Assembly (NCBI GenBank): GCA_032718475.1
Contig: JAUCBJ010005080.1
Coordinates: 1-37,709 of the forward strand
Direction of reading: 5' to 3'
Source of the DNA: Nemertoderma westbladi
Taxonomy: Eukaryota > Animalia > Xenacoelomorpha
Length of the DNA stretch: 37,709 nt
Positions 1 through 32,226 of the stretch are shown here, in pieces. The notes under the pieces are model-generated. The model made no database searches, was not told where the DNA came from, and was given only the letters and a program-made list of their open reading frames with translations. Position 1 is the stretch's first letter, and the number at the start of each line of letters is the position of its first letter. The position numbers were made by a program, and so were the translations under genes.

Positions 1-524
1 TAATCATTTTGAAAGGAAAGGCGAAGAAGATATCTGCTGTTGAAATCTTGTGAATAACTGTTTGTGGGTGTTTGAACTTCAATTTATAGTTTCATTTTCT
101 TATTTCACAACATTATAATATGTATTACCAAAACATCAATGTTTAAATCATGAATCATAATATATCAGAAACGATCCAATTCCGCGTTTTGGATAGGATC
201 ACAATTTAGTAATATTTAGATTATTTTACTTGTATTATATAACGATGAATCATGTTTATTTTCTACTGGAATAGGTCGAAGGTATTCAGCTCATTTAGTG
301 TCTGGTTTCTTGAAGAACGATGACAAGTCTGAGTGTATTCGGTTCGGAGTTGTGTGTAGAAAACATTTCAGCATATTATAAGCAACACACCAAGACTCCA
401 ACAGCTTTATGAAACAGATGATCCGGAAATATATACATTATTATTGACAAGGGACAGACAGTTTCTGAGACTATCTCACCTTGTTCTAATTGCTAATTCT
501 AAGAAGCCAAGAAATTCTATAGAG

Positions 525-570
525 GGTGATTGATTGGCTGGTCATTGGCCATTCAGTGGTCGTATAAAGA
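525..570 (+). promoter_or_regulatory. Possible core promoter (two inverted CCAAT boxes followed by TATAAA)
   Basis: TGATTGGCTG and CATTGGCC at 531-550, then TATAAA at 563-568. The target transcript is unknown. Confidence 0.25.
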
Positions 571-950
571 GGTTTATTATTTGGCTACCCAGAGTATAGA
601 ATGTGGCCCAGTTGGGTGCCACTACTGTGTGTGTGTATGTATGTGGACAGCTATACTAATATGGCTCACAGGGCTCTATCTCAGTTGAGTGACAGTTCGC
701 GAACAAGCCGGTTGTTACTGGCTAATATAATGGTCTGAACAGCCAAGGCAAGCCCTTTTTATACAAAATCTGCCATAAATTGGAGTATTTGAGACATTCA
801 GCATTTTAAGTTGACTATTATTACTGCTTTACCTGGGCGAGTTACAGGCGTTAGGCGTTAAATTTTTATATACTGTTTATTGTAATACAATTTGTATTCA
901 GTATTATTAGAGCTCTTGTTGTTTGTAGAAGGAAGATTACTCAATTAAAT

Positions 951-956
951 TTTATT
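951..956 (-). terminator. Candidate polyadenylation signal of the ADAM10-like prodomain gene
   Basis: AATAAA about 47 nt downstream of the TAA at 1005-1003. A second AATAAA lies at 881-876. The AT-rich context weakens this evidence. Confidence 0.45.
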
Positions 957-1002
957 GAAGTTGCCGTCTTGCTGTGATTGTGGAAATGGTTTGAGAAATG
1001 GG

Positions 1003-1070
1003 TTAAGGAGTAACGGCCATGCAACTGTAATGGGAACCAGTTGGTACCCATTGGCCATTGCGGTATAAAA
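1003..1070 (-). CDS. ADAM10-like: Putative terminal exon 5 of ADAM10-like prodomain gene (cysteine switch, then stop)
   Basis: Strong acceptor atttttatttattttttAG, phase 1. Encodes (V)LYRNGQWVPTGSHYSCMAVTP-TAA, which completes the HSV-I/L-Y motif and supplies a Cys at the cysteine-switch position. AATAAA lies on the minus strand at 956-951. Confidence 0.72.
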
Positions 1071-1362
1071 CTAAAAAATAAATAAAAATAATTCTGTTTT
1101 TTTGCCAATTTTATTTTCAATTTATATTTTATTTCATTAGGCCTGATTGTTAAACAGAAAGTTAATATTATCATTGAAATAATAATAAAAATTAATTATC
1201 ATTCCGACTTGTAAGTTATTCGAATCATTCTCAGAATATGTCTCGTATAGAATATGTAATATATAGTCAACTAGATATACTACTATATGCTGCTCAACTG
1301 CAGCATATAAAATACTAGGACTGCAGGACTGACTCGCAATAATTATTAATAGTTTATAATAT

Positions 1363-2194
1363 CGGTCGCTCAGCAGGTTTTAACTTTTCGGTCGAAATTC
1401 TACTGAAATTTTATATATAAAGAATTTGTAATTTTCCAAATGTATCCTTATTAACTGTTTTATGGCGCTTATTTCTGTCTTATAACCAGTATAGATACTT
1501 AAACTTATTCGTTTATTGTTTTGGTTGGAATCAGCCCTTCTGAAACCTGTGGATTTAGTGAAAACCTGCTACGGTATTCTTCACGGCCCATATGAAGTAT
1601 ACTTTGCAGTTTACCCCCATGTGAAGAATACCAGGTTTTCACTAAAACCACAGATTTCAGAAAGGTTGATTTTAACCAAAACAAAAACTAATATGTCAGG
1701 CCCGTAGCCAGTCGTTGGTTCGAACGAATCGCCCTTTTGAGAAAAGTGCCCTCACGCTCACATGTTTGGGGAATATGCCCTTTTTATAATCACCTTTTTG
1801 ACAAATACTCTCCTATTATATTCACCAATTCGTAAAAGTGCCCCCCCCCCCCCCCCCAAAGCAAATATTAAAGTTACATTAGCAGCTTTTCTTTAGCAGC
1901 AGATAGAATTCAGATTCACATTATGCCATGGCCAATGTGCTTTAAAAAGTACCCCCCGCCTAATTCCAACCTTAATATGCTCTGGACAAACCAATGGATA
2001 TTTGTCATTATTTAAACAAATAAAAAAAGTGCCCTTTTAAAGTCCTGGCTACGGGCGTGTATCTATAAAGGTTATAAGACAGAAATAAGCGCCATAAAAC
2101 AGTTAATAAGGATACATTGGGAAAAATACAAATACTTCATATATAAAATTCCAGTAGAATTTCGACCGAAAAGTTAAAACCTGCTGAGCGACCG
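1363..2194. mobile_element. Foldback/MITE (near-palindromic non-autonomous DNA element, family A)
   Basis: 1363-1487 is the reverse complement of 2070-2194. The inner arms (about 1517-1585 and 1621-1685) are also inverted. A related copy lies at about 14085-14330. Confidence 0.85.
1697..2059. mobile_element. Nested MITE with 15-bp terminal inverted repeats (hAT-like ends)
   Basis: Ends are CAGGCCCGTAGCCAG and CTGGCTACGGGCGTG, with internal AAAAGTGCCC repeats. It interrupts the right arm of the family A palindrome. No clear 8-bp TSD. Confidence 0.7.
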
Positions 2195-2532
2195 CTATTC
2201 ACTATTATAAATAATTAATAATAATTAGAAAATTAGAAATCTTGAAAAATTAGACTAAACTCCGTTCAAACATCCTGCTGCTGGTTGAAAGCTTTGATTT
2301 ACTTCATGTGGTATTTATTTTACTGATTGGCGGGCTTTATTTGGAGGTATTCAATTAATGTTTAACTAATTAATTTGGTTATTATACGACAGAATAAAAG
2401 TGGTCCTATCGTTATAAAGTAAGCAAACTCTAAACTAAATCGAATTTGCTTCCAGGGATTAACGTGTTTGGGTGCCTCCACATAATACAGTAATACTGTT
2501 AGTAGGCCTAATATAAGTAACACACGTCATAA

Positions 2533-2630
2533 ACCAATTGAGGGAAAGGAGCAGGTTACAGAGGCAGGCTTTTCTAACCAAAATAATAAATGGCCACTTT
2601 ACCAATTGAGGGAAAGGAGCAGGTTACAGA
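2533..2630. repeat. 30-bp direct repeat
   Basis: ACCAATTGAGGGAAAGGAGCAGGTTACAGA at 2533-2562 and 2601-2630. The AGCAGGTTACAGAGGC core recurs near 14655. Confidence 0.8.
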
Positions 2631-3153
2631 ACACTGCCCCAGCACTACTGTACAACTACCTAAAGTACCGGTACAGTACAGGTGGAGACCCTGAAACACG
2701 TTAGTCCCTCGCTTCCATCCACGCAGGAAACATTCGACAACCCGGGGGTGCAGTACAGAATAGTAGAAATAAATAATATCTTTAATACTTTTCGATAGCT
2801 GCAAGTATACTGCAAGACCACGATGACGATGTCTTCTTCATGCTTTGTAGCAAGAAAAATAAAACTAGAAAAGGGTTGGAACCAAAATCAAAGATTCCTT
2901 ACAATATTAATATAACCTCGTTACGTAGGTTAATTACAAAAAGTATATTTAATTTAGAATTAAATTACGTGTGCTGTACTCCACGGGAATCAACATGTTT
3001 GTTTATAATAAGTGACAGTTGACAGTACTCGTTTCAATTACATACCATTCATTATCAGAATACCTTAACTGTTTAAATATGAAAACCGCACATAGAGAGG
3101 ATATTATTATTAATTTTATATAAAATAATTGTTACGCAAATTGGTTATTATAT

Positions 3154-6100
3154 ATGAACAACAACTGGACAGACACTGCGTCGGCTGATTCTGGCTACGG
3201 AAGTCAACAGACGCCATCCAGTGGCAGCTCAGGGCATTCGAGTCATCTTGTATTTAATCGGCATAATAGGTCGTTATCCAATCACACACGAGCTAATAAC
3301 AGGTGGGCAGCCAATTCCACGAGAGATTCCGTTATCCAACATACTAGTAACACTACTAGTTATACAGCACCACCTAGCGGTGCTATTGTGAGACCGCGAG
3401 CGATCCACCCACCGCTTTGTTTCTATCCCGTTCGGGTGCCTAGCGACGGACAACTGTTCGGAGAACCCTGGACTCTGGGTTGCCCGAGTAACCAATTCTA
3501 TCACCTAGGCAACCCATCCATGTACGACGTGAGACACTCGCTACCGATGAGTAATTTGTCGTCGGCGTTCTGCGCCCCGCCGCGGTTCAATACGGGTCCG
3601 CTAGGTGGCGTGGTGGCGACAGAAACGAATTTCACTGAGATGCGAGGCGGAGAGAACGAGACCGCTCTGGACAATAAAGGCAAGAAGCGTGTTCTAAGCG
3701 TAGCAGGGTCGTCTGAGACCACTAGCGGGGTGTATCAGAGCGCCCCCTTGCGGCCAGGCCGGCCGTTGCACCACCACATGTATCCCACACACCCAACAAC
3801 TGATTCCCTTAGCGGCAGCAAGCGGTATCAGGGACTCGCGATGGGCCCCCCCAACGGAAGGTCAACTCACCGCCCTCCTATGGAGCCCTCCAGCAACCCG
3901 ATCCGGCACACTATGACGTCATCCTGCTCCACTTCCGGCACTCTCTATCCGGGTATGACATCACCCGGCTCCACCCCCACAACACCATACCCTGGTATGA
4001 CGTCATCCTGCGTCACTTCCGGCGCGCAGATCAAGCTGGAGCCGCAGTGGGCCTGCGACACTGCGACCTGGGGCGAGCCATCGACGTGGGGCGAGCCATC
4101 GAGCGACCGCCTCCCCCCGCTGGGCCACAGCTGGGAGGACTCGCCGGGCGGGGCCGAGCCGCCCTACAGCCGGGCCGACGACGCCTCGGAATGGGGCGAG
4201 CCATCGAGCGTGGAAGCCACCGAGTGCTGGTGGGAGGGATGCGCGATCGGGTTCGAGAGACTGGCGGACCTGGTCCGGCACCTCAACGCGGACCACATCG
4301 CCGCCGCCGACCGCAAGGAGTTTGTCTGCCGTTGGAGGGACTGCTCCCGCGAGCGGAAACCCTTCAAGGCGCAGTACATGCTGGTAGTCCACATGCGTCG
4401 ACACACCGGCGAGAAGCCGCACTGCTGCACGTTCCCCGCCTGTCGCAAGGCCTACTCCCGCCTCGAGAACCTAAAGACCCACGTCCGCTCACACACGGGA
4501 GAGAAACCCTACCTGTGTGAGGTGCCGGGCTGCGGCAAGGCCTTCAGCAACGCGTCGGATAGAGCCAAACACCAGAACCGGACTCACTCCAGTGCCAAAC
4601 CCTACGGCTGCCACATGTGCCCCAAATGCTACACGGACCCGAGCTCCTTGCGGAAACACGTGAAGACGGTCCACGGCCCAGAGGCGCATCTTACGAAACG
4701 ACAACGTAAAGACATGGTCGCTCCCAAAACCGAGTCTCACCCTGCGGATCCGAGCGGCTCTGTACAGCGCGTCACACCATTGGTCGGCGCCATGACAACG
4801 GCGTACCGTTACGCGGAGGAGCCCCCTGCTGCACTGAGCTCCGTTGACTCCTCCCAGAAGGGATTCCTTCGTCGCCCCATGGAGTTCCTCCGGAGGTTCA
4901 AAGTGAAGAAGGAATCCCTCGGGGAGGATCAAACTCCCCCCAATTGCGAGGTGATGACGTCATCCTACCCCGCGCAATGCCCCGCCGCCGGGGCAACCAT
5001 CCATTACAAGAGTAAGTCGCTAGGGGGCCTCATCGAGGGGATGGGTGTCCCCGGGTCCCGAAGGGGGAGCAGCAAGACGTCTGCGTACGAGTCGGGGGGC
5101 CAGTCGGACGAGGGGGGCACCAAGGGAGGCACCGAGGGGGCGGGGGAGGAGAGGTCGAGTAGCCCCAGGGGGGAGAGTGTGGCGTCGGTTAGGGTACCTC
5201 CGGTGGGGGAAACCGACCAATCGGGGGGCAGAGTCATAGCCGCCGAGGTACATGTGGGAAGCGATAGTCACCTTAGCAATGGTGGTAACCTTAGCAACCA
5301 CAGCAACGGTGGTAACCTCAGCAACCTTAGTGACGGAGTAAACATTACTAACTGTGGCAACCTTAGCAACGGTAAGCTAAGCAACCCGACGGCGGGGATT
5401 GACTGCGTGGGCGTTTTACCTCGGCCCACCGGGGAGCCCAACTGGGCGGACATCGGGGCGGAGAGCGTGTTGGAGTTGGGCGGTCCGACGCAGTTTACGG
5501 ACCCGGAGAACGCCTCGGTCAGCGACGGGACGCTCGACGACGACATCGTACTTCCGGCGGAAGTGAACCAGTTCATACGGGAGCGACGGGCGGCGGCGAG
5601 ACGGCAGCGGGACGAGTCGGCCAATAAGGGCGCCGAGCCGCGCCATCCTGTGTGCCGGCTGCCGGCGCAGCCGGCCTTCCACGGCGGCTACGGGCACGAC
5701 CCCAGTGAGCCGATCAACCACACCGTGGTCTGGTACCCAGTACCCGTACCTATGTTCCCCTACCAGACGGAACACACGCCCTCCTCGCCAGTCAACAGGA
5801 CCGGCTCGTTGCCTAGACAACTCTCACGTGTCTGTGAGCCTCTGATTGGCCCGGGCGTTGCCCTGGGCGACTATGAGGAGACCATGGTACAATCGATGAC
5901 CAGACTCAGTACGGAGGAGAACTCATCCATGTTGGTGGATAAAGGCGCCTCTAGCGGCAACGTAAGGAACTCGAGAAGATTCGGTGGTAACCGACTAACC
6001 ATGGAAACCTCGACCAATCAGACGCCGAGGAATCGCCTGCCCGCCTCTCAGTCGATGCCGGCATTCGACCAATCGCAACTGGTTTCGGACAATCCGAACC

Positions 6101-6498
6101 TCAGGATGTCGGGATTCCCACAACAAATGAATCAGGTGTTGTCACCCGGGCAACCGCATTACTTCAACCAATCGGGTCAGCAGGTTTACTTGACTCAGCC
6201 GCCGGTATATCCGAGGCAACCACAGGGCCAGCAGCCCCACAGACAGATCCAGCAAGCCAACAACCCCGGAATGTACGGGGGAATGGCGCCCCGGGAAAGT
6301 ATGCTGAGTCCCCCGGGGGGGCCACAGAGGGGGCTAGTGAGCCCCCTCGGGCTGGTCGGTGAGAACCCCAGGTTCCCCCCGCGGGGGGTGGTGAACACGA
6401 ACAGAGGTCAGTTCGCAAATAACTCCAACCTCATGATGAGTACAATAGGAGAGAGTAACGGGAATTACAACGAATATTTGCACAGAGGAAATCGTTGA
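3154..6498 (+). CDS. GLI: Gli/Cubitus interruptus family C2H2 zinc-finger transcription factor, single uninterrupted ORF (1114 aa)
   Basis: Five tandem fingers (about 4225-4674) with Gli signatures: [76 protein letters not shown]. The downstream [14 protein letters not shown] resembles the Gli2/3 DDLVLPDDVVQY motif. The ORF is GC-rich in AT-rich flanks. Confidence 0.96.
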
Positions 6499-6884
6499 GA
6501 CACGATAGGCAGCCTATAAGCCGTGGTGGATTCAATCTGCCACAAACAGACATTGAGTCCGCTGTCCGCATAACTATCGATTAATAATTAATAATGAAGC
6601 AATAACCCAAGCATGATTAAATTTTAATGATATTAGTAAACATTTACTCGTAGACTTAATATAATATAAAGGCTTGTTTTGTTACCTAATATGCAATGTG
6701 AATCTTTATTGTAGAAGAAATGTAGATAATTACGTATCGCAACTAATTCTAGTTATATATATTTTATTTCAATTTCATCAGTCTAACAACATTAATATTA
6801 TTATTATTAAATAAAATTTGAAAGTATGGTTGTAATTTACTCGAAAACAACATCATTTAGTTATATAATATTTAAAGGGACTAG

Positions 6885-6968
6885 AGAGACCAGGGCTCAA
6901 CTCTTTATTACATCCTTAAATGGTAGTTAAGTGAGTAGCAGTTTCCTTTGGGGAGTAGAGTTGTGGGT
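6885..6968 (+). mobile_element. Degenerate SINE core fragment
   Basis: catccttaaatggtagttaagtgagtagcagtttcctttggggagtagagttgtggg matches the core of the SINE at 34330-34605. Confidence 0.7.
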
Positions 6969-7317
6969 TGTTGCTTTACTTTTTGTTGGTGCAAATGAAA
7001 GTAATGGAAAATGAAAGTAATTTGGTATTTATTCCTACGGAGTTATAACAGTTTCTAATAAAAAATATAATTTAGAGATTTACAACGACTTCTACTTGGT
7101 ATATATTTATTCCATAATAGTAAGATTTCTTACTTTATTTAACATCAAAAGGCGAAAATAATTGATACGATACGATACAAAAGCTAATATCGATGAAAAA
7201 ATACTGAGATTATTTTAATAATGTTAATATTATAATATGATACAAAATAGAAAATTTGATTTCGTATAAATGCATTACATTGCGGGAAGGATAAAGACAG
7301 ACTTGTTTATAACTTAC

Positions 7318-7455
7318 CACTGTGGTACATCGAGTCCAACAGACTTGGGTGCGAGGCCGTTGACTCAATGTAATAGGTTTCGTCGGGAGTGTGAATAGTT
7401 CCTTCGAACTGGCCATCGGTGTCTATAGTGCCGTAGACGTAGGAATCTGAACCGC
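7318..7455 (-). CDS. ADAM10-like: Exon 4 of ADAM10/Kuzbanian-like prodomain gene
   Basis: Acceptor tgtatccctAG, donor G|GTAAGT, 138 nt, phase 1 to 1. Encodes GSDSYVYGTIDTDGQFEGTIHTPDETYYIESTASHPSLLDSMYHS, which resembles ADAM10 DGRFEGFIQT..GTFYVEP...FHS. Confidence 0.92.
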
Positions 7456-8362
7456 CTAGGGATACAACATTTTATGTTTTATTTTTAAAGAAACGACTGC
7501 CACCTGGTACACTAACTACTTAACGTTTACTCAATCACTATTGGTGGAGTAGGAATACCGCTAAGTCACTTCAGACCCATTGAATCTATCAATTCAAGGG
7601 TCGTAATGGTTGTAACATTATATGGTAATCCCAATAAATATATCCAACAGTCCAACCAATGCATAATAATACCAGAACAAGCAGTCAAGTTTAGTGAAGA
7701 TCTGACTAGGGCTGTAAGACAGGAAACAGCTAAGCTACATTTATTTATACTTTAATCCGGGTGTCTTTTTTACTCTTTTTTTAGATATTTTTCATTTATA
7801 TTAAACAATGAATATTATTTATATTCTAGAGAGAAAGGCGTTTTGAGCTGCAACGTCTAGTTGTATTCATTAACAGTCGCAGATGGATTTTCAAATTGGA
7901 AATTCAATATTTTGACTAGAGAAAAAAGTTCCAATATTTTTATAAGTTACGGCCTTTCGAACTTTTGACTCCAGATCAAATCGAACTTACTCAAGTTCAC
8001 GTGCTGCGCGACGCCCCACGAACGTGTTTTTTTCATAATACAAACAAATCGAACAATTGTTTTCTAAAAAAGAAAAAGTTTCACCTTCACACCGCATTTT
8101 TCACATAATTTGCCCTATGTTTCGGCCTAAAATTGATGAAAAATTGTTCCCATTATTATGAGTATATCCATCATGACCCGTATATAATAGTGTTTTCTGA
8201 TGACCTACCCCCCCCCCCCCCCCCCCATTTTTTCTAGAAATTTTTATTATATTGCTTGAAATTTGAAACACAACTAATGCAACTCACCGTGCCGGTTAAG
8301 GCAGAGTCATACTTTTCTATTTTCAATTTAAAAAAAATTTCAAAAAAAGTGACTTTGTGGAA

Positions 8363-10128
8363 TTTTACCCTTCGTATCGCCGCCATTACTCACATTTAGT
8401 CGTGATTTTACCCTTCGTATCGCCGCCATTACTCACATTTAGTCGTGATTTTACCCTTCGTATCGCCGCCATTACTCACATTTAGTCGTGATTTTGCCCT
8501 TCGTATCGCCGCCATTACTCACATTTAGTCGTGATTTTGCCCTTCGTATCGCCGCCATTACTCACATTTAGTCGTGATTTTACCCTTCGTATCGCCGCCA
8601 TTACTCACATTTAGTCGTGATTTTACCCTTCGTATCGCCGCCATTACTCACATTTAGTCGTGATTTTGCCCTTCGTATCGCCGCCATTAATCACATTTAG
8701 TCGTGATTTTACCCTTCGTATCGCCGCCATTACTCACATTTAGTCGTGATTTTACCCTTCGTATCGCCGCCATTACTCACATTTAGTCGTGATTTTACCC
8801 TTCGTATCGCCGCCATTACTCACATTTAGTCGTGATTTTGCCCTTCGTATCGCCGCCATTACTCACATTTAGTCGTGATTTTGCCCTTCGTATCGCCGCC
8901 ATTACTCACATTTAGTCGTGATTTTACCCTTCGTATCGCCGCCATTACTCACATTTAGTCGTGATTTTACCCTTCGTGTCGCCGCCATTACTCACATTTA
9001 GTCGTGATTTTACCCTTCGTATCGCCGCCATTACTCACATTTAGTCGTGATTTTACCCTTCGTATCGCCGCCATTACCCACATTTAGTCGTGATTTTACC
9101 CTTCGTATCGCCGCCATTACTCACATTAAGTCGTGATTTTGCCCTTCGTATCGCCGCCATTACTCATATTTAGTCGTGATTTTGCCCTTCGTATCGCCGC
9201 CATTACTCACATTTAGTCGTGATTTTGCCCTTCGTATCGCCGCCATTACTCACATTTAGTCGTGATTTTACCCTTCGTATCGCCGCCATTACTCACATTT
9301 AGTCGTGATTTTACCCTTCGTATCGCCGCCATTACTCACATTTAGTCGTGATTTTACCCTTCTTCGTATCGCCGCCATTACTCACATTTAGTCGTGATTT
9401 TACCCTTCGTATCGCCGCCATTACTCACATTTAGTCGTGATTTTACCCTTCGTATCGCCGCCATTACTCACATTTAGTCGTGATTTTACCCTTCGTATCG
9501 CCGCCATTACTCACATTTAGTCGTGATTTTACCCTTCGTATCGCCGCCATTACTCACATTTAGTCGTGATTTTACCCTTCGTATCGCCGCCATTACTCAC
9601 ATTTAGTCGTGATTTTACCCTTCGTATCGCCGCCATTACTCACATTTAGTCGTGATTTTACCCTTCGTATCGCCGCCATTACTCACATTTAGTCGTGATT
9701 TTACCCTTCGTATCGCCGCCATTACTCACATTTAGTCGTGATTTTACCCTTCGTATCGCCGCCATTACTCACATTTAGTCGTGATTTTACCCTTCGTATC
9801 GCCGCCATTACTCACATTTAGTCGTGATTTTACCCTTCGTATCGCCGCCATTACTCACATTTAGTCGTGATTTTACCCTTCGTATCGCCGCCATTACTCA
9901 CATTTACTCGTGATTTTACCCTTCGTATCGCCGCCATTACTCACATTTAGTCGTGATTTTACCCTTCGTATCGCCGCCATTACTCACATTTAGTCGTGAT
10001 TTTACCCTTCGTATCGCCGCCATTACTCACATTTAGTCGTGATTTTACCCTTCGTATCGCCGCCATTACTCACATTTAGTCGTGACTTTACCCTTCGTAT
10101 CGCCGCCATTACTCACATTTAGTCGTGA
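8363..10128. repeat. Homogeneous tandem satellite, 41 copies of a 43-bp unit
   Basis: Unit TTTTACCCTTCGTATCGCCGCCATTACTCACATTTAGTCGTGA. 1766 bp = 41 x 43 plus one 3-bp insertion near 9360. The main variant is TTTTG versus TTTTA. Confidence 0.97.
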
Positions 10129-10372
10129 TTTTTAAGAAAGCTTCCGTTACAAGGATTCCAAATCTTTAAAATTGTTATGAAACAGCTGAGATATAGTCGT
10201 TCAAAGATTGCAAGAATTATCGTTATACTAAATCTCCAGCCTGTTATATACCCCGTAGGAACTTTTTATATGAGCTGCCCCACATAGATGTTTAGTACAG
10301 ATACGGGAGATTATAAATAGTTTGGGTTGACTTCACCAAACGGTTGCGCTGGTGTCTTAAACATAGCAACGG

Positions 10373-11756: not shown

Positions 11757-11938
11757 CATTAATGCTCCCCTGGTAGACATTATCAGCGTCCCAAGTAGTT
11801 TGTTCTCCGTTTAACTCTATGATGACGTCATCGCTGACTATATGGGGGTTGTGACTGAGAACTAGGTCGAAAGGTTTGGCGAATGCTTTAAAGGAGAGAT
11901 AAACTACAGGGCGTGACGGTTCGCTCGAGGCAACAGAT
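11757..11938 (-). CDS. ADAM10-like: Exon 3 of ADAM10/Kuzbanian-like prodomain gene
   Basis: Acceptor ctttatttacAG, donor G|GTGAGT, 182 nt, phase 2 to 1. Encodes SVASSEPSRPVVYLSFKAFAKPFDLVLSHNPHIVSDDVIIELNGEQTTWDADNVYQGSING, with the reprolysin propeptide pattern L.F.A..+.F.L.L...Y.G. Confidence 0.9.
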
Positions 11939-12282
11939 CTGTAAATAAAGGGAAGAGTTTAGATATAAACTACACGTAGTCTATTAGGTCATCGGATCGC
12001 ATCTGTTTACTTACAATCATGGTGGGGGGCGGGGGGGGGGGGGGGGGTAACTTAGAGGAAACACAAGAACACAAGTACCGATAGCTATAGTTAATAGTTG
12101 CTCCCAGATAACGGTATTAAAATGTGAAAAAATAACAAGCTTCCTTGGGGACATCCAATCATAAGTAAGTACGGTGGCCGGTAGAACTGTCATAGCGAAA
12201 AATATAAACCGACCCTATAGAGGGCCGAACCCGGTCCCTATTGGTTTCAAAGTTACTCATATCATCCGCACATTGAGGAAGC

Positions 12283-13900
12283 ACTACTACTACTACTAAG
12301 TCGAGCGAACTCGGACAGTGGAAATGAGATCCTTCCAGGCTTCCCGATTCTCCAACTACTACTACTAGGTCGAGCGAACTCGGACAGCGGAAATGAGATC
12401 CTTCCAGGCTTCCCAATTCTTCAACTACTACTACTAGGTCGAGCGAACTCGGACAGTGGAAATGAGATCCTTCCAGGCTTCCCGATTCTCCATAGTTGTC
12501 GCAATTTCGTTTCTCCCAAGTTCAGTATCCCTTTCAAGTTGATCTATATATGTTATGGCCGGTCGTCCACGACTACGCTTTCCATGAGTTGGTTGCCAGG
12601 AAAGTAGATCTGGTAAGACCTCGTCTTTACTTCGCCAGCAGTGCCAACTGAATCTTAATCTGCGTTCACTGAGGGTGGTTGATACAGGTGGTATTGTACC
12701 ATAAAGCTCGGCATTTGTCATGTGTTGTCTCCAGCTGATGTTTAGGGCTGCCCTTAGTAGTCTTGTGTAGCAACCATCAATTCGTTGTTCAAGTGATTTA
12801 GTCAGTGTCCAGGTCTCACCCCCGTATAAAAATACACTTTCCACTGTGGCTCGAAAGAACTTGGTCTTCAGGTGCCTGGAGAGATCTGATTTCCAGATGG
12901 TATCCATTTTTGATAGAGCTACCCAAGCCTTTGCTTTCCTAACTTCTATGTCCTTTTTGCTATTCTCTATCCATGATCCAAGGTACTGGAAGTCGTCAAC
13001 CTTCCTTAATTGATTATTATCAATGGTTGTCAAGTTTCCATCAACATTAAAGGTCATGAATTCGGTCTTTGTAGCATTTATATACAATCCAACCTCCTTA
13101 GCAGCCCTCTCCACTTTATTTAGTAAAAGCTGTGCATCTGCTAGCGTATTAGAGAGCAGGGCGATGTCATCCACAAAGTCGGTGTCTGTGACTGTAGTTG
13201 CCGGATATCTACTACTTCTGAGTTCTTGAAGTGTGAATCCCAGATATTCACCCTTTGTAGCCGTCCTCATTGCGTAATCCAGCACAATTACAAATAGTAA
13301 TGGTGTAAATGTGTCACCATGCAGTACCCCAGCCAGGATTGAGAAAAACTCAGTTTCACCATCTGGTGAGAGTACCTGCGCTTCTGTGTCACAATATAAC
13401 ACTCCAATGCCAGCAACAATTACTTCTGGTATTCCATAAGCTCTTAGGATTTCAAGCATTTTACCTCTATGGATGGAGTCGAATGGCTTCTTGAAGTCCA
13501 CAAAAGTCATGACTGCGGGGAGATTCTTCGACTTAATTCCTTCAATCAGTCTCCTTAGCGCAAGTATCTGAGCTATTGTTGATCTATTTGGTTGATCTAC
13601 GTTTTGGATCTTACGCAATAGTTTCTCTATGTGAGGCCTAATCCTATATAGAATCATTTTATTGTATATTTTGGCAGCTACCACAAGCAGACAGATCCCA
13701 CGATAGTTTGTTGGTATGCCGACTGCCGAGGTCTCCTTTCTTGGGGAGAGGCTTTACTTGACCTTTAGTCCAAATTGGTGGTGGCTTTTCCCCTTTTAAC
13801 ATCCGGTTGCAAACATTCAATAATGGTCTGTTTAGCACTCCTGTTTTCCATACCTCCGCTGGGAATTCATCTAATCCACTCGCTTTATTATTGGACATGC
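12283..13900 (-). mobile_element. 5'-truncated RTE-clade non-LTR retrotransposon (RT pseudogene) with triplicated 3' end
   Basis: RT motifs FVDFKKPFDSIHR, GVLHGDT, DFVDDIALL, FQYLGS and an RTE-type C-terminus (RRLRFSWHCWR...RGRP). Frameshift near 13690 to the upstream KASGLD...PLPKKGDL segment. (TAG)n tail directly at the stop codon. Confidence 0.93.
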
Positions 13901-14084: not shown

Positions 14085-14330
14085 GGTAAAAATTTTATGG
14101 TGGAATTTTATATATGAAGATTTTTTATTTTTATTAAATGTATCTTTATTAAGTGTTTTATAGCGCTTATTTCTGTCTTATAACCTGTACATATACTAAT
14201 TCGTTTATTGTTTTGGTTAGATTCAGCTCCTTCTGTAACCTGTGTTTTTGGTGAAAACCTGGTATTCTTCACATGGGGGTAACTGCAAAGTGAAATATAA
14301 CGGCAGAAAGTCAGGTACCGGTATTCTTAA
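14085..14330. mobile_element. Partial copy of foldback family A
   Basis: gcgcttatttctgtcttataacc...tcgtttattgttttggtt...gtgaaaacctggtattcttcac matches 1400-1640. Confidence 0.75.
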
Positions 14331-14394: not shown

Positions 14395-14473
14395 TTGCTA
14401 TGGTGGTCGAGCAGCTTATCTTTATCATAGGCTAGACCTTCGTAGTGCTGAATATATTCGTTGAGAGTCTCAC
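14395..14473 (-). CDS. ADAM10-like: Exon 2 of ADAM10/Kuzbanian-like prodomain gene
   Basis: Acceptor ttattttccAG, donor AA|GTAGGT, 79 nt, phase 1 to 2. Encodes GETLNEYIQHYEGLAYDKDKLLDHHSK, which resembles the ADAM10 prodomain start (LNKYIRHYEGLSY). Confidence 0.9.
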
Positions 14474-15358: not shown

Positions 15359-15422
15359 CACTGACGACAGCTAATATCGATAGCAATAACAACGATTTAC
15401 CGATGTTATACCAAAAGGCCAT
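15359..15422 (-). CDS. ADAM10-like: Exon 1 of ADAM10/Kuzbanian-like prodomain gene (signal peptide)
   Basis: ATG at 15422 gives MAFWYNIGKSLLLLSILAVVS-G, a hydrophobic signal-peptide-like stretch. It ends in phase 1 at a G|GTAAGT donor (64 nt), compatible with exon 2. Confidence 0.8.
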
Positions 15423-17900: not shown

Positions 17901-19032
17901 GTAGTGGAATTGCACGAAGGACCCTATATAAATTATATTTAAGAAATCGCCCCACATCAAACTGAACTTTTTAGGCCTTCTAATAAATCACCGAACATTT
18001 ATGACCGAAACAAACACCTGTCTATTTCTGTATATTTTTTCAATTTATTTTTTAATAATTTTTTGAGTATTGAGTGGTGGGGGCCCCTATGCACGTGAAC
18101 ACTGTGCACATTGGGTAATCCGGCACGCGTTTTAGTCACAATGCCATTCACATTTTAGTCGAATAAGGACAGAAGGACGTTTTAAAGTGTTAAATGGTTT
18201 CTCGGTACACAAAATTCAACAAATTATAGGAAGTCAGGAACAAATTATAGGTGGCCATTTCAACCGTTTCCTAGTGTTTTTACAAAAACACACCCCGCCA
18301 TTCGATTCAGGGCACCTTGTTACCCCTTGTTCAATTTTCCCCAACAATTTGTTCGCGCACCAACACTATTCACACATAAACGAAATGCTTTCATTCCTCA
18401 AATTGAATGAAAATATAAAAATATGGCTATTGCACTGTAGTCAGTCTCTCTTTTGAACACGCACGCGAATGAGTGAACATCAGAATATGTGGGTGCAGCT
18501 GCCGGCCGGTGTGATACCGCATATGCGGTATCAGCCGATAGATGCGTGTTAAAGTTTCCCCCGCCCGCAGTATTGCGTGTTACATGTTCACATTCTTTAC
18601 ACCCACGCTCTGGCCAAGCGATATACTTTACTTTAATGAATATTCAACTATATTACATGTTATCCTCCAGCTTCCTTGAAAACCCATTTATATTGTTAGA
18701 ATATTCGATGTATTCTATTCGATTTTATCTCGCTACCTTCAAAATTCATTTAGAGATTCATTTCACATATCTGCGCTACGAGCGCTGTAGGTAAAAAACG
18801 GAAATTCGAACCTTGGGGAAAACACAGAGTAACTATTGATGAAATGAGCATGGAGGAAGGAGACCTCATTCCTCCTTGCCCATTTACCCTCTCCATTGCT
18901 TTCGACTACAAACTTGTATAAATAGCTCATGGGTGAATCAAATAATTATTCGATGGTGGCAAATGTTTCTTGTATGCAGCAAAGCATTTAAATTAGTTTA
19001 TCGGTTGATTTCAGGCGCTGATCTCTTCACAA

Positions 19033-19803
19033 ATGGATCTACCAGAATTAGAAAACATGTTCCCCATATTTCCTTCTACAAAGGGGCATTATCAACAGAT
19101 AGCGAATGTGCGCAGAAATTTTTTGGAGGATTCCACGGAATACATCCAAAATGAGGCGTTTTACTCCGCCGACGTGGAGAGCATCAAGCGGAAGGATTAT
19201 TGGGTTTGGCGATACATTCGCCACAATCGCAAAGCAGTCGATGTTTGCAGCGCCGCCGCGAGGAACATCCAGAAAAACTTCCTTTGGCGAAAAAAATTTG
19301 GTGTTAAAAACGCGATGAATCCGTCGAAAGTGAACGAGCTGCTATCGAGCAACTGTTTTGCTTTAGGGGAAGTCGATGATGCTGGCAACAAGATATTGAC
19401 CATAAGAAACAGACTCTACCACAAAAAACAAAGCGAAGATGCGAAACATCTGGTCATATTTATCATTGAGAATGAGATGTTGAATGAAATCGACGATGGC
19501 TCGAGATTGACGGTGTTATTTGATATAGACGGCGCAGGGATTAACAGTTTCGATTTCGGGCTGTTCAGTTTTACAGTCAAATGCCATAAGAGTTTATATC
19601 CAGATCAGTTGGCTTATATTCTTGTAAGCGAAATGCCGTATGCATTCGCAACAACGTGGGAGTTATTCAAGAATTTGATTGTAGGTAAACGCTGTGCGCA
19701 GAGCATCAGGTTTGTGGCTGAATTGGAGCTTATAAAGTATGTGGATAAAATACAGCAATGGGCGGCTGAAAAGAAGATTGCGTTGAGTGCCAACGATAAT
19801 TAA
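19033..19803 (+). CDS. CRAL-TRIO/Sec14 domain protein, MOSPD2-like N-terminal domain only (256 aa)
   Basis: DYWVWRYIRH...FLWRKKFGV (CRAL-TRIO_N), DDAGNKILTIR, LTVLFDIDGAGINSFD, YPDQLAYILVSEMPYAFATTW. An in-frame acceptor tttcAG at 19013-19014 suggests an upstream exon. Confidence 0.85.
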   Translation: MDLPELENMFPIFPSTKGHYQQIANVRRNFLEDSTEYIQNEAFYSADVESIKRKDYWVWRYIRHNRKAVDVCSAAARNIQKNFLWRKKFGVKNAMNPSKVNELLSSNCFALGEVDDAGNKILTIRNRLYHKKQSEDAKHLVIFIIENEMLNEIDDGSRLTVLFDIDGAGINSFDFGLFSFTVKCHKSLYPDQLAYILVSEMPYAFATTWELFKNLIVGKRCAQSIRFVAELELIKYVDKIQQWAAEKKIALSANDN

Positions 19804-21186: not shown

Positions 21187-22343
21187 TGTACGCGCTTTTG
21201 AAGACCTTTAGCAGTTTAACCTGCCAAAATTTATATGTCTTTTGGTTTATAAATAGACTTTAGAAAATGACAAGTATTTAATACCAATAAACACAACATT
21301 AGCCGAAGCCAGCCTAGTGCGCGTCCATTCACCCGCTGGATATACCCGGGAGACTGGATTCGGAGGGCTTAGATTGTTATTGCAGTGTAAGCTTACTGTA
21401 TTATTCGATTGATCGTTAATAAATAATTTCTGACCAATATTATTCACTTTCGGGAAATATTAACAGTTCCTTTAGGACGTGGCGCTCTATCTAGGTAAAC
21501 AGAGATATGACTTATACCAAACACAACGGTAAGTCGGTAAGGCTTATGATTCACGTATGAGGCGCATTCTTTAGGAAATGCTTAGTTATCAGTCACAATC
21601 ATGCACACTACCGGTAACACACAATACTGCACACTAATTTGCCGACCGTCAATGAATTTTATCATATATAAAGAGAACAGCAATTGACTCATGTAGTGCT
21701 TATCAAATAGCATTAAATTCACTACAAACCACAATAATATAAGTCGCAATCGCTATATGTAACCCGTCTCTCTAACCTGTAGTGTATCAAGAAAATTGGG
21801 AAATTTGGGTTCTTTATAGATGTTCTCCAGATAATAATATTCAACCATAACACAACAGTAAATAGCAGTATAATAATGTATGTTGCAGTGATATAAGACT
21901 ACTGCTGATTGCACTGATTGTACTGGACCGATAACAGTTATACGCTCTATAATCTAAGCCTACTAATGTTTCTTCTAAAGTCTGAAACGAATTGACTCTA
22001 GAGCCGGTGTTCCTGGCCTAGATAGAAACAACACAACAGTATCCTGAAAAACAGTAAGACTGAACACTCCTAGCACGATCTGCCAAATATCTCCACATCG
22101 ACAGAAAAAATCGCTCTGATTGGCTGTTAAGCTAAACAAAGAACCATGTGTCCAATGGCCGTTTCCATGTCAGCAACCAGCTGTTAGATGTCGTAATCTG
22201 AATCATCAAGGCTAAGCTGTGCCAGGGTATTTGACGCATTGCGAGTTTTTTGCCTTACCATGTCCGCCAAAGCACACATATAGAAGAATGACTTTTATGT
22301 CCGTTAAAACACCTATAACGGTAGCTTGCGGGCGAGGGGGACT
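21187..22343 (-). repeat. 3' LTR
   Basis: On the + strand it starts TGTACGCGC and ends GGGGGACT (CA changed to CT). Direct repeat of 32418-33552. Confidence 0.9.
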
Positions 22344-22446
22344 GATTATATCCGCAAAAGCTTTTACACCGCTCCCAGAAAATGGGATTCAAGTTTATAA
22401 ATATACAAAAATCACAGTTTCTAATATATGTAAATACTCTAAACAG

Positions 22447-23895
22447 TTAGCCTTTCTTGCGCGGACGGCGTTTATGCAGTTTTTTAAAGCTGGCCAGAGT
22501 CCTTTTCTCTTTGGGGCGAGCCACCTTACAAGGAGGGCTATAACTCCTGGGTGAAGGGTGCAATATAATTGCATCAGAGGGTATAGGATTATGGTCGGTG
22601 TATCCGCCAGTCGAAGTGCCGGGTTGATTGACATCAACGTCGGGGGAGCGGGGTCTAACGGCTTTGAGAGCGCGTTTTAAGACAGCCGCTCTTACGGGTC
22701 CTTTACGAGTGGTCTGAACGAGAGCCGTGGGTGGACCATAGGCAGTTAGAAACCTCCGGGGTTTAATGGTTCTTTCCAACTCGCGTTCGCGGGCTCGGTA
22801 TTCGTAAGGCCGTCGATATACTTCCTGTAACTCGGGGTGTGAGTTAACAAATAAGTCTCCATAGTCCGGATCCTGACGGATATAATTGATTAAGTTATAG
22901 GAATGAAGGTCGCTAGGATTAACACTCCTGAGAAATTTGCGTACGAACTTGGTTGAAATACATTCTCCGACGCGCTTCAGTAGTTCGTAACTCGATATGC
23001 GTGATTTCTGTTCGACAGAAGCGAATAGATAAGGATGGAACGCATAAACTCCTTCGTAAGCGCGTCCAGGATAATAGCGATGGCGCGAATCACAATGTAA
23101 ATCAGCGTTCGCTTCCCAAGCTCTGATGTAACGTAGTGTGATCATTTCATCTACGCTTTCCAAATCGTGATTAAAAGGGCAATCGAAACTGGCGTGTCCC
23201 TTTAGTTGACAATGGTGACATTAAGTCATAAATTGAGGGCAAACCGCAAAAATGTGCAAGTTATTGAGTCTGCAATATGCACAATAAATTTCCATCACCG
23301 GTTGTTCGTGGAAATAGGAACAGCGGACGTTTGTGTCCATGGGCGTAACATGGTCTCTCGATGCGCATAACCGACAACGTTGCCGAGAAACATAGTTGGC
23401 ATGGCGATAATTGTACGCAGTGAGACACTGTGGACCTTGATACCATTCTAGGATGTAATCGTTGTCGCTGTTCCGGGCGCGATAGGCTGAATCTCCTCAG
23501 ATTCTAGGCATATTGGTTCTTCTTCCCAGTCTGTTATGAATAGAATTTTCGTGATCTATTCTCGGTTTATCATTACGACTCCACTGGGTATGATATTTAA
23601 ATAGAACCATTTCCCTTTCGGTGTCTACATCGTCCGTATCATGTAAATCGATAGGATGGCCGGTAGTTAGGAAGTCCATATACGTACTATTACGATGCGT
23701 ATAGCGAGCGGTGAATTTTCGATAGTCCAATTCACGCGTAAGTTGCTCTTGGGACATCGGCGGTTCGATATAACGACCATCATCCTCCGTAATGGTTGGA
23801 TCAGTTTCACCGCGTATCAAGCTATCCACAAATGCTTGTAAAGGTAGAGTATATCGCTCCCTGATACCAAGATCATCTTCTATCAACTCCGTCAT
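22447..23895 (-). pseudogene. Accessory ORF of the LTR element (483 codons, two in-frame stops) with three CCHC zinc knuckles
   Basis: ORFs 23497-23895 and 22447-23163 are in the same frame. Reading through TGA (23499-23497) and TAA (23223-23221) gives CRLCASRDHVTPMDTNVRC, CAYCRLNNLHIFAVC and CHHCQLKGHASFDC. The C-terminus is basic (KKLHKRRPRKKG). Confidence 0.8.
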
Positions 23896-24711: not shown

Positions 24712-24980
24712 ATTTGATTCCAGAGCAGGTCTGGGGACATAGGATCCTTAATTCTATGAAAATTGTCTTTTAAGAGTATCTGTAAGTGCTGCGATATCTT
24801 AATTGACTAGAAATTTTAAAGGATCTGAATTTTACAGATTTTAATAAATATTAAATTAATATTTAAGATGGGCACCGATTTATTCCAGAACTTGTCTGGG
24901 GACGTTAACCACTGATTCTAGAATTTGTCTTTCAAGTATATCGGTGGGTGCCGCGATATCTTAATCGACTAGAATTACAG
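24712..24980. repeat. Diverged direct repeat (about 100 bp) inside the LTR element
   Basis: attccaga...gtctggggac...gcgatatcttaat.gactagaa occurs at about 24715-24812 and 24882-24975. Confidence 0.7.
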
Positions 24981-32050: not shown

Positions 32051-32226
32051 TGAACAATCTGAGCAGACTTAGACGTCTTCAGCTCAATATTAACTTACAT
32101 GTAAATAAAACCGACAGAAATAAGTAAAATCTCAATAAAAAACCAGGGCTGCAGTCCCTGATTAAATACTAAGACCTACCGGTATACAATAATCAAAATC
32201 GAATAATACTAATGTACTTATACTGG

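What the first reader, a model, noticed from the sequence alone, without database searches (positions are those of the whole stretch)
1071..7317. Uninterrupted Gli ORF nested antisense in intron 4 of the ADAM-like gene
Seen: the 3345-bp Gli ORF has no introns, is far more GC-rich than its flanks, and lies wholly between ADAM-like exons 4 and 5 on the opposite strand. Known: characterised Gli/ci genes are multi-exon, with introns within the zinc-finger region. Inference: a retrogene or a fully intron-lost Gli inserted in a host intron. This physically couples the Hedgehog effector to a putative regulator of the Notch sheddase and allows transcriptional interference or shared enhancers.
Basis: partly seen in the sequence, partly recalled or inferred. 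Interest (0 to 1): 0.75.

Follow-up and report, generated by a model that had tools for sequence, protein, structure and literature searches.

The report
Intronless Gli inside ADAM10-like gene
An unidentified animal genome carries a complete Gli (Hedgehog-pathway) gene written as one uninterrupted, unusually GC-rich exon; it probably lies backwards inside an intron of an ADAM10-like gene and likely arose from a reverse-transcribed mRNA, which makes it a curiosity of gene structure, not a new kind of system.

Summary
The ORF is real: 3154-6498 (+), 1114 codons. In 2000 shuffles the longest ORF was 380 codons.

- **Gli identity.** It encodes a five-finger Gli protein (2GLI, E=1.8e-73). It also carries a PKA-type site and a GLI2/3-type C-terminal motif, in the usual order.
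- **Composition.** GC is 0.61 (GC3 0.71), against 0.28-0.34 in the flanks and GC3 0.52 in neighbouring coding sequence.
- **Missing introns.** In metagenome Gli loci the finger region breaks at two fixed positions, in 54 of 56 and 40 of 43 covered loci. The window ORF runs through both.
- **Host gene.** The minus-strand neighbour has four phase-compatible exons. They match the human ADAM10 prodomain in order, but by eye only. Exon 4 (7318-7455) lies just past the Gli stop.
- **Exon 5.** The proposed exon 5 (acceptor at 1070) has no independent support. No catalytic exon lies in the window, so nesting is probable, not shown.
- **Retrogene marks.** No poly(A) relic and no convincing target-site duplication.
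- **Not available.** No genome, no RNA run and no close relative.

Verdict: an intact single-exon Gli, likely made by reverse transcription, probably nested. Any Hedgehog-Notch coupling is speculation. Interest is moderate to low.

The parts
3154..6498 (+). Single uninterrupted Gli/Ci-type ORF, 1114 codons plus TGA
   Evidence: ORF and shuffles; Pfam C2H2 fingers; 2GLI E=1.8e-73; GC 0.607, GC3 0.714.
4219..4689 (+). Five C2H2 fingers (aa 356-512), continuous across the intron positions conserved elsewhere (aa 426/427 and 480/482)
   Evidence: alignment to 2GLI; 106 of 116 columns invariant in 9 deuterostome Glis are kept, identity 74-77%. One search gives the intron positions in metagenome loci; the finger-5 C-x2-C spacing is found in 0 of 39 other loci.
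3217..3243 (+). Degenerate SuFu-site-like stretch (aa 22-30, SGSSGHSS type). The canonical S[YF]GH is absent.
   Evidence: S[YF]GH is present in 9 of 9 comparators and absent here; present in 11 of 12 transcript-like environmental Gli ORFs.
5059..5088 (+). Single PKA-type site with the Gli signature RRxS..S.AY (aa 636-645)
   Evidence: Comparators carry 1-7 such sites downstream of the fingers, and the first one has the same signature.
5536..5604 (+). Acidic run plus [ILVM]LPx[DE]xxQ[YF] motif (aa ~795-808), followed by RERRAAARR (aa 809-817)
   Evidence: the motif is in 72 of 120 stored Gli homologues and in 0 of 5000 shuffles of this protein. RERR[AN] appears in 7 of 5000 shuffles.
6616..7062 (+). 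Candidate polyadenylation signals after the Gli stop (ATTAAA at 6616 and 6806, AATAAA at 7057); no A-run of 7 or more
   Evidence: In DNA this AT-rich, such hexamers are expected by chance.
15359..15422 (-). ADAM10-like exon 1: ATG plus a hydrophobic, signal-peptide-like stretch; donor GTAAGT; ends in phase 1
   Evidence: The signal-peptide reading is by eye only.
14395..14473 (-). ADAM10-like exon 2 (27 codons counting the shared ones), with the pattern LN.YI.HYEGL.Y
   Evidence: one of 4 phase-compatible candidates between exons 1 and 3; splice sites ttccag| and |GTAGGT. By eye, 14 of 27 residues are identical to the human ADAM10 prodomain printed in the preprint read.
11757..11938 (-). ADAM10-like exon 3 (reprolysin-family propeptide-like)
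   Evidence: Pep_M12B_propep E=2.9e-4, 21.8 bits, below the 23.7 cut-off; 30 of 30 named Atlas hits carry PF01562, score 0.92, which the tool rates weak; splice sites. By eye, 13 of 49 identical to the sequence.
7318..7455 (-). ADAM10-like exon 4, ending in phase 1 with donor GTAAGT (7317-7312), 820 bp beyond the Gli stop, convergent
   Evidence: By eye, 14 of 45 identical (one gap) to the sequence, including DG.FEG.I.T...T.Y.E and the final HS. Pfam, PDB and Atlas gave nothing firm.
1003..1070 (-). Unverified.
   Evidence: It is one of 4 candidate acceptors out of 347. The first three residues continue the ADAM10 order (HS|V-L-Y against HS-V-I-Y), by eye. No family match.
1071..7317 (-). Proposed intron 4 of the host gene. 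If exon 5 is wrong, the intron runs off the left end of the window.
   Evidence: Inference.
1340..2217 (.). Foldback or MITE-like element upstream of Gli (159-nt arms, 91% complementary)
   Evidence: I1. A related stretch near 14108-14326 was seen in the ORF translations.
2454..2709 (.). Small inverted-repeat element (28-nt arms) with an internal exact 30-nt duplication
   Evidence: I3, D7.

Best explanation
The 3154-6498 ORF is an intact single-exon Gli/Ci-type gene that likely arose by reverse-transcription-mediated removal of all its coding introns, most likely as a retrogene inserted antisense into the long fourth intron of an ADAM10/Kuzbanian-like gene, and it is predicted to be a working Hedgehog-pathway transcription factor.

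Shown:
- The ORF, its composition and its Gli-type fingers.
- The absence of the two finger-region introns that are conserved elsewhere.
- Four phase-compatible host exons upstream, on the opposite strand.

Inferred:
- That the host gene continues beyond Gli, so that Gli is nested.
- That intron loss happened in one step through cDNA.
- That the copy is ectopic and was not converted in place.
- That the protein binds GLI sites through fingers 4-5, is controlled through its single PKA-type site, and activates through the C-terminal motif.
- That the high GC3 helps an unspliced mRNA to be expressed, a relation so far documented in human cells only.
For: **The ORF is real.** 1114 codons against a shuffle maximum of 380.

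**It is a Gli.**
- 2GLI scores E=1.8e-73 and 250 bits; ZIC3 scores 128 bits.
- 106 of 116 invariant finger columns are kept, and fingers 4-5 are nearly unchanged.
- In GLI2/3 order after the fingers come the [10 protein letters not shown] site (aa 636) and the VLPAEVNQF motif (aa 799). That motif is in 72 of 120 homologues and in 0 of 5000 shuffles.

**Introns are missing at conserved positions.**
- Among 65 genomic-looking metagenome Gli loci, the match breaks at aa 426/427 in 54 of 56 covered loci and at aa 480/482 in 40 of 43.
- The window ORF is continuous there.

**The genome is intron-rich next door.** The host gene uses four exons for 154 codons, separated by introns of 0.9, 2.5 and 4.3 kb that carry transposons and a satellite.

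**The host looks like ADAM10.**
- Pfam gives a sub-threshold propeptide match.
- All 30 named Atlas hits are propeptide families.
- By eye, exons 2-4 follow the printed human ADAM10 prodomain in order.

**GC3.** 0.714 here against 0.526 and 0.516 in neighbouring coding sequence. In human cells GC is highest in single-exon genes (PMC7181179, abstract seen).
Against: - No retrogene hallmark was found. There is no A-run of 7 or more after the stop. The only flanking direct repeat is 14 of 15 nt in AT-rich DNA with no A-tract before it.
- No downstream host exon is verified. The acceptor at 1070 is one of 4 comparable sites, and no catalytic or disintegrin exon lies in 1-3200.
- No transcript data and no genome were available. 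A 5' UTR intron, a parent copy or a truncated host gene therefore cannot be excluded.
- The canonical SuFu site is missing, and only one PKA-type site remains against 1-7 in comparators. This could mean a diverged extra copy and not the main effector.
- Other lineages also lack some finger-region introns (L015, L016, L017), so stepwise loss does happen.
- The ADAM10 match rests partly on an alignment made by eye.
- The other single-exon ORF in the window (CRAL-TRIO) is not GC-rich (GC3 0.516).
Confidence: 0.5

Rival explanations
1. In-place intron loss. This is the animal's ancestral Gli locus. Its introns were lost gradually, or by cDNA gene conversion at the original site, possibly across the whole lineage. 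The position inside or beside the ADAM10-like gene is an unrelated rearrangement.
For: - No poly(A) relic and no target-site duplication.
- Some environmental Gli loci have already lost one or both conserved finger-region introns (L015, L016, L017).
- The protein keeps Gli motifs over its whole length, as a long-maintained gene would.
Against: - The neighbouring gene keeps many long introns, so the genome is not generally intron-poor.
- Losing every coding intron of a 3.3-kb coding sequence step by step is less economical than one cDNA event.
- Antisense placement within or next to another gene's intron is the typical landing pattern of inserted copies (PMC5174743, abstract seen).
Confidence: 0.25
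2. Not nested. The four ADAM10-like exons are a truncated gene, a pseudogene fragment or a transcript that ends near exon 4. Gli and the host are then only convergent neighbours, 820 bp apart.
For: - No exon with protease, disintegrin or cysteine-rich homology lies downstream of exon 4 in the window (0 of 37 ORFs).
- 'Exon 5' is short, ends in a stop after 22 codons and has no family match.
Against: - Exons 1-4 have intact splice sites, compatible phases and no stop in 154 codons, which does not look like decay.
- A signal peptide plus part of a prodomain is not a plausible complete product.
- The residues after the 1070 acceptor continue the ADAM10 order (by eye).
Confidence: 0.25
3. Extra diverged copy. 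An intron-bearing, canonical Gli exists elsewhere. This ORF is a younger retro-duplicate with altered regulation (no SuFu site, one PKA site), possibly tissue-restricted.
For: - Loss of S[YF]GH, which 9 of 9 comparators and 11 of 12 environmental Glis keep.
- A single PKA-type site.
- A finger-5 C-x2-C spacing seen in 0 of 39 other loci.
- Ten changes at otherwise invariant finger positions.
Against: - The other two genes in the window also found no relatives in the word-indexed protein search, so fast evolution may be lineage-wide and not specific to this gene.
- No hallmark of a young insertion was found.
Confidence: 0.25
4. Artefact. A cDNA or foreign GC-rich fragment was assembled into an AT-rich contig.
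For: Only the sharp compositional contrast.
Against: - GC rises gradually over about 300 bp at the 5' end, from 0.31 to 0.57.
- The change coincides with the ORF ends.
- There is no poly(A), no vector-like junction and no N in the window.
- The flanks carry the same repeat family seen elsewhere in the window.
Confidence: 0.03

Closest known systems
GLI2/GLI3 of vertebrates and Cubitus interruptus (bifunctional Gli proteins)
   Same: - Five Gli-type fingers, 74-77% identical.
- Fingers 4-5 almost unchanged.
- The post-finger stretch HGPEAH.TK.QR, as in the deuterostome sequences compared.
- A first PKA-type site with the RRxS..S.AY signature and the LP..V.Q[YF] C-terminal motif, in the same order.
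   Different: - One coding exon. Human GLI3 has 15 exons (three papers in the listing hold that phrase), and nearly all sampled genomic loci break in the finger region.
- No S[YF]GH SuFu site.
- One PKA-type site where most comparators have several.
- C-x2-C in finger 5.
- GC3 0.71 against 0.32-0.58 in 13 transcript-like environmental Gli ORFs.
Functional and 'orphan' retrogenes (processed-mRNA copies that became, or replaced, the working gene)
   Same: Intronless where relatives have conserved introns; sits in another gene's territory on the opposite strand; higher GC3 than its neighbours, as reported for human single-exon genes (PMC7181179, abstract only).
   Different: No poly(A) tract, no clear target-site duplication, and no known parent.
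Nested intronic genes (for example Drosophila nested genes, PMC5174743; vertebrate LRRTM genes in alpha-catenin introns, PMC3933685; abstracts only)
   Same: A complete gene on the opposite strand, apparently within a long intron.
   Different: Only one flanking host exon is verified. At 3.3 kb of coding sequence, the nested gene is not a short young duplicate.
Human ADAM10 / Drosophila Kuzbanian (host gene)
   Same: A signal-peptide-like exon, then prodomain segments in the same order as the human prodomain printed in the preprint (14/27, 13/49 and 14/45 identities, by eye). Weak support from the propeptide family.
   Different: Only the first ~154 codons are in the window. No catalytic, disintegrin or membrane-spanning part was seen.

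Membership tests
GLI/Ci family of C2H2 transcription factors | Five tandem fingers with Gli-type sequence, closer to GLI than to ZIC or other C2H2 proteins | tested here: met
   2gli_A E=1.8e-73, 250 bits over 153 residues; ZIC3 (2rpc_A) 128 bits; 74-77% identity to 9 Glis.
GLI/Ci family of C2H2 transcription factors | Conserved fingers 4-5 (the DNA-contacting fingers in the GLI1-DNA structure; that they make the contacts is recalled, not from a call) | tested here: met
   the helices [16 protein letters not shown] and [16 protein letters not shown] are unchanged. The finger-5 knuckle is shortened to C-x2-C.
GLI/Ci family of C2H2 transcription factors | N-terminal SuFu-binding motif S[YF]GH(LS) | tested here: not met
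   present in 9 of 9 comparators, absent here (the closest stretch is SGSSGHSS at aa 22-30); present in 11 of 12 environmental ORFs; L002 also lacks it.
GLI/Ci family of C2H2 transcription factors | Cluster of PKA sites C-terminal to the fingers | tested here: inconclusive
   one RRxS site with the family signature, where comparators have 1-7.
GLI/Ci family of C2H2 transcription factors | C-terminal acidic/LP..V.Q[YF] motif of GLI2/3 | tested here: met
   present at aa 799; found in 72 of 120 homologues and 0 of 5000 shuffles. Absent from 12 of 12 transcript-like environmental ORFs, so it is not universal.
Retrogene (processed gene copy) | Lacks the introns of the family at conserved positions | tested here: met
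   54 of 56 and 40 of 43 loci break at the two positions; the window ORF is continuous there.
Retrogene (processed gene copy) | Poly(A) tract at the 3' end of the insert | tested here: not met
   no A-run of 7 or more between 6499 and 7318.
Retrogene (processed gene copy) | Flanking target-site duplication | tested here: inconclusive
   the best pair is 3122-3136 and 7155-7169, 14 of 15 nt. This is one of 20 similar AT-rich families in 8.3 kb, so it is at chance level.
Retrogene (processed gene copy) | Intron-bearing parent gene elsewhere in the genome | not testable with these tools
   no genome is held for this window.
Nested (intron-hosted) gene | Host exons on both sides, joined in the host mRNA | tested here: inconclusive
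   Exon 4 is supported. The downstream exon is unverified. No RNA holder was listed.
ADAM10/Kuzbanian (M12B, host gene) | Prodomain of reprolysin/ADAM10 type after a signal peptide | tested here: inconclusive
   PF01562 at 21.8 bits, below the 23.7 cut-off; 30 of 30 named Atlas hits are PF01562, score 0.92, recognition value below the tool's bar. By-eye colinearity with the sequence. PDB gave nothing.
ADAM10/Kuzbanian (M12B, host gene) | Zinc metalloprotease domain (HExxH) and disintegrin/cysteine-rich domains | tested here: not met
   none of the 203 minus-strand ORFs of 25 aa or more that were scanned matched such families. They may lie outside the window.

The most novel reading that the evidence does not exclude
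This animal's only Gli is an orphan retrogene that replaced the ancestral multi-exon gene. It is embedded antisense in the gene for the Notch sheddase ADAM10. Transcription of one gene would then physically hinder the other, giving a hard-wired either/or switch between Hedgehog response and Notch activation. The loss of the SuFu site would mark a re-wired control of Gli.
Probability: 0.05. Interest if true: 0.75.

Novelty: new member of a known kind. Interest (0 to 1): 0.35.

Why it matters
Gli genes are textbook multi-exon developmental regulators with deeply conserved intron positions. A complete, apparently functional single-exon Gli in an otherwise intron-rich genome would be a clean natural case of whole-gene intron removal from a key signalling effector, probably through cDNA.

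- It could show whether a retro-copy can take over an essential pathway role, and whether high synonymous GC accompanies that outside mammals.
- The missing SuFu site and the reduced PKA cluster would make it a natural experiment on Gli regulation.
- The position inside an ADAM10-like gene is a curiosity that matters only if the two genes prove to be co-regulated.

None of this is a new kind of system.

Tried and rejected
- **Whole genome.** None is held, so no search for a parent copy and no synteny.
- **RNA runs.** No RNA holder was listed.
- **Earlier notes of this scan.** Nothing for this genome or this sequence. One loosely related note came up.
- **Rfam.** No family reached its gathering score.
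- **Identifying the organism.**
  - The exact ORF is not in the protein collection.
  - All named best hits are vertebrate, hemichordate or sea-urchin Glis, and they match only the finger region.
  - Word-indexed searches with ADAM-like exon 3 and with the CRAL-TRIO ORF found nothing.
  - The taxon stays unknown.
- **PDB with ADAM-like exons.** None for exon 3. For exon 4 only chance-level Met-tRNA synthetase hits (E 0.34-0.81).
- **Atlas with exon 4.** Mixed bacterial lipocalin-like hits and one ADAM9-like hit at 0.88; inconclusive.
- **Target-site duplication and poly(A).** Nothing beyond chance.
- **Literature.**
  - A search for intronless/Gli/hedgehog/retrogene found 187 papers with at least 3 terms. 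None of the 15 listed concerns a Gli retrogene by title or abstract start.
  - A search on Gli/Glis/Zic intron structure gave only a passage on the conserved zic intron.
  - I therefore found no printed report of an intronless Gli, within these two searches only.
- **Left out.** A scored alignment (tblastn or BLASTP) of the human ADAM10 prodomain against the window. That sequence came from a paper's text and is not a stored record, so the comparison was made by eye.
- **Rejected reading.** I rejected the idea that the host encodes a prodomain-only regulator, because it depends wholly on the unverified 22-codon exon.
Full report
**The observation**

- The plus strand carries one open frame from ATG 3154 to TGA 6496-6498: 1114 codons, or 3345 bp with the stop.
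- Read from stop to stop, the frame opens only ten codons further up, at 3124.
- In 2000 shuffles of the same 3345 bases, the longest ORF averaged 161 codons and never exceeded 380. The other five frames of the real sequence reach 88-235 codons.
GC is 0.607 with GC3 0.714 (795 of 1114). The adjoining stretches 1071-3153 and 6499-7317 have GC 0.337 and 0.280, and the rest of the window 0.39.
- GC climbs over about 300 bp at the 5' end and falls within about 100 bp of the stop. The shift follows the coding sequence and is not an abrupt junction.
- No 75-bp window inside the ORF is below GC 0.40, so no AT-rich intron of this genome's usual type is hidden in frame.

**What the ORF encodes**

- Pfam finds C2H2 fingers at aa 356-507.
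- Against solved structures, the best match is the five-finger GLI1-DNA complex 2GLI: E=1.8e-73, 250 bits, one unbroken alignment of 153 residues. ZIC3 scores 128 bits.
- Both large protein searches return Gli proteins. Every Gli match is confined to about aa 300-550:
  - 2097 hits among 7965 scored candidates, with 16-25% of the query covered.
  - 90,260 hits in the exhaustive search. The top of that list is crowded with poly-finger proteins, and the single-stretch hits cover at most aa 301-549.
- The 19 named clusters I looked up are vertebrate GLI1/2/3, a lamprey 'GLI4-like', Saccoglossus and Lytechinus. The exact ORF is not in the collection.
- Over the fingers, the window protein is 74-77% identical to nine deuterostome Glis, which are 78-98% identical to each other. 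It keeps 106 of the 116 columns that are invariant among them.
- Its own peculiarities:
  - K424C, E428P and G429A.
  - A two-residue deletion that turns the finger-5 knuckle into C-x2-C. None of 39 other loci with that finger share this.

**Motifs outside the fingers**

No BLAST segment lies wholly outside the fingers against any of the 314 stored proteins. Short motifs are nevertheless in the right order:

- One PKA-type site with the family signature ([10 protein letters not shown], aa 636). Comparators have RR.S...S(S)AY as the first of 1-7 sites.
- An acidic run followed by VLPAEVNQF (aa 799). This matches the GLI2/3 LP..V.Q[YF] motif, which occurs in 72 of 120 stored homologues and in 0 of 5000 shuffles of this protein.
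- The canonical SuFu-binding S[YF]GH is absent. It is present in 9 of 9 comparators and in 11 of 12 transcript-like environmental ORFs. The nearest stretch is SGSSGHSS at aa 22-30.

I read this as a full-length, divergent Gli of the bifunctional type. It does not look like a decaying pseudogene.

**Are introns really missing?**

- A scan of metagenome contigs with a Gli alignment gave 80 loci.
- Thirteen of them (L001-L013) look like transcripts: twelve have uninterrupted ORFs of 970-1523 codons, L006 is a 1.2-kb fragment, and two carry poly(A) ends. I set these aside.
- Two more (L019, L057) were dropped because no match reached 55% identity.
- In the remaining 65:
  - At ORF aa 426/427 the tblastn match stops, restarts or is split in 54 of 56 loci that cover the position (27 split, 27 ending or starting exactly there). 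L016 and L020 are continuous.
  - At aa 480/482 the same holds in 40 of 43 (17 split, 23 edge). L015, L016 and L017 are continuous.
  - A third position near aa 373-375 is an edge in 29 loci and continuous in 22.
- Several loci are near-duplicates, so these counts are contigs and not independent lineages. Their organisms are unknown.
- Human GLI3 is described as having 15 exons (three papers in the listing hold the phrase; I saw only the listing).
- The window ORF runs straight through all these positions. It therefore lacks at least two introns that are otherwise nearly universal, although a few other lineages have also lost one or two.

**The gene on the other strand**

Four exons on the minus strand fit together:

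| Exon | Coordinates | Features |
|---|---|---|
| 1 | 15422-15359 | ATG, hydrophobic stretch, donor GTAAGT |
| 2 | 14473-14395 | acceptor ttccag, donor GTAGGT |
| 3 | 11938-11757 | acceptor tttacag, donor GTGAGT |
| 4 | 7455-7318 | acceptor ctag, donor GTAAGT |

- Joined by coordinates, they give 154 codons without a stop, plus one base.
- Exon 3 matches the reprolysin-family propeptide just below Pfam's cut-off (E=2.9e-4, 21.8 against 23.7 bits). I scanned about 220 ORFs in all, so after multiple testing this is borderline.
- All 30 named Atlas neighbours of exon 3 are propeptide families, at a score (0.92) the tool itself rates as weak.
- Exon 4 gave nothing firm.
- A preprint on ADAM10 prints the human prodomain (passage read). 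By eye, exons 2, 3 and 4 follow it in order:
  - 14 of 27, 13 of 49 and 14 of 45 identities.
  - The patterns LN.YI.HYEGL.Y and DG.FEG.I.T...T.Y.E are shared.
  - Exon 4 ends on the same HS.
- I did not run a scored alignment, because that sequence is not a stored record.
- I conclude that the host is probably the 5' part of an ADAM10/Kuzbanian-type gene, that is, the sheddase itself.
- Its introns (0.9, 2.5 and 4.3 kb) hold a reverse-transcriptase ORF and a 43-bp satellite. The genome is clearly intron-rich.

**Is Gli nested?**

- Exon 4 ends in phase 1, 820 bp beyond the Gli stop, and the two genes converge.
It reads 22 codons and then TAA.
- Of 347 AG sites downstream of exon 4, four have at least 15 of 20 pyrimidines and at least 15 open codons in the right phase. 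Two of the others lie antisense inside the Gli ORF.
- The 1070 site has one point in its favour. Its first residues (V-L-Y) continue the ADAM10 order after HS (V-I-Y), and a proline and a cysteine follow at roughly the expected spacing. This is by eye only.
- None of the 37 minus-strand ORFs of 25 aa or more in 1-3200 matches a protease or disintegrin family. The rest of the gene, if it exists, lies left of the window.
- Because exons 1-4 look intact and cannot be a complete product, I put nesting at about 0.7. Only transcripts or the adjoining sequence can show it.

**Origin**

- No A-run of 7 or more lies between the stop and 7318.
- The only direct repeat that brackets the ORF (3122-3136 and 7155-7169, 14 of 15 nt) is one of twenty similar AT-rich pairs and has no A-tract before it.
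- Classical retrogene marks are therefore absent, as they would be for an old insertion.
- What favours a cDNA-mediated, one-step origin:
  - Every coding intron is gone in a 3.3-kb coding sequence, in a genome that keeps long introns next door.
  - The gene lies antisense in or beside another gene's intron. Nested genes are described as arising mainly by insertion of duplicates into long introns (PMC5174743, abstract start seen).
- High GC3 could be inherited or could be selected. In human cells, GC is highest in single-exon genes and helps unspliced mRNAs (PMC7181179, abstract start seen).
- Against a general rule, the single-exon CRAL-TRIO ORF in this window has GC3 of only 0.516.
- Whether this is the only Gli of the animal cannot be told.

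**Verdict**

- The ORF, its composition and its lack of conserved introns are confirmed.
- The host gene's exon 4 is confirmed. Exon 5, and therefore nesting, is probable but unproven.
- 'Retrogene or full intron loss' is a fair reading, with retroposition somewhat favoured.
- The functional coupling of Hedgehog and Notch components is speculation.
- This is a new example of known phenomena: a functional intronless copy and a nested gene, affecting a well-known developmental regulator in a poorly sampled animal lineage.

Noticed in passing
window 8362-10132: A 43-bp satellite, 41 copies at 98% identity, strongly C- and T-rich on the plus strand. It lies inside intron 3 of the ADAM10-like gene.
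   Followed up: no
window 12434-13753 (-): A 439-aa reverse-transcriptase ORF (RVT_1, E=4e-26) in intron 2 of the ADAM10-like gene, in the same orientation. It is followed by a 69-bp tandem repeat at 12286-12492. Its CpG observed/expected is 0.56, against ~0.95 for the window.
   Followed up: partly
window 21187-33551: An LTR-retrotransposon-like unit. Direct repeats of ~1.2 kb (21187-22342 and 32418-33551, 95-97% identical) flank a 1544-aa ORF with DUF1759 and aspartyl-protease matches (25553-30187, -) and two further ORFs (22447-23220 and 23497-23910, -).
   Followed up: partly
window 19009-19803 (+): A single uninterrupted ORF with a CRAL/TRIO domain (E=5e-15), divergent from ADAM10-like exon 1 and 3.6 kb away. 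The word-indexed protein search found no relative. GC3 is 0.516, so this single-exon ORF is not GC-rich.
   Followed up: partly
window 5578-5604 (Gli aa 809-817): RERRAAARR follows directly after the C-terminal LP motif. Vertebrate GLI2/3 carry Y.RERRNAI near the N-terminus (83 of 120 stored homologues). Here a similar string sits at the other end of the protein (RERR[AN] appears in 7 of 5000 shuffles).
   Followed up: partly
window 4612-4632 (Gli aa 487-493): The finger-5 cysteine knuckle is C-x2-C where others have C-x4-C. None of 39 other Gli loci show this. One transcript-like contig (L002) shares the rare HCC at aa 423-425 and also lacks the SuFu motif, but it is otherwise no closer, at 66% identity.
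   Followed up: partly
window 1841-1857, 8208-8224, ~12025-12045: Runs of 17 or more C on the plus strand recur in the introns and flanks. They may belong to a repeat family or be a microsatellite habit of this genome.
   Followed up: no
window 35595-36317 and 37582-37709: Long arrays of a degenerate 10-nt unit (TTGCTCGTTG-like, 72 copies). They flank reverse-transcriptase fragments at 36317-37581 (-).
   Followed up: no
L001-L013 and the window Gli, post-finger stretch: Eight of the transcript-like environmental Glis continue after the fingers with HGAEFYA-like or similar strings, and two with HGEQ. The window and the deuterostome Glis share HGPEAH.TK.QR. This hints at the animal's affinities but was not tested by a tree.
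   Followed up: no
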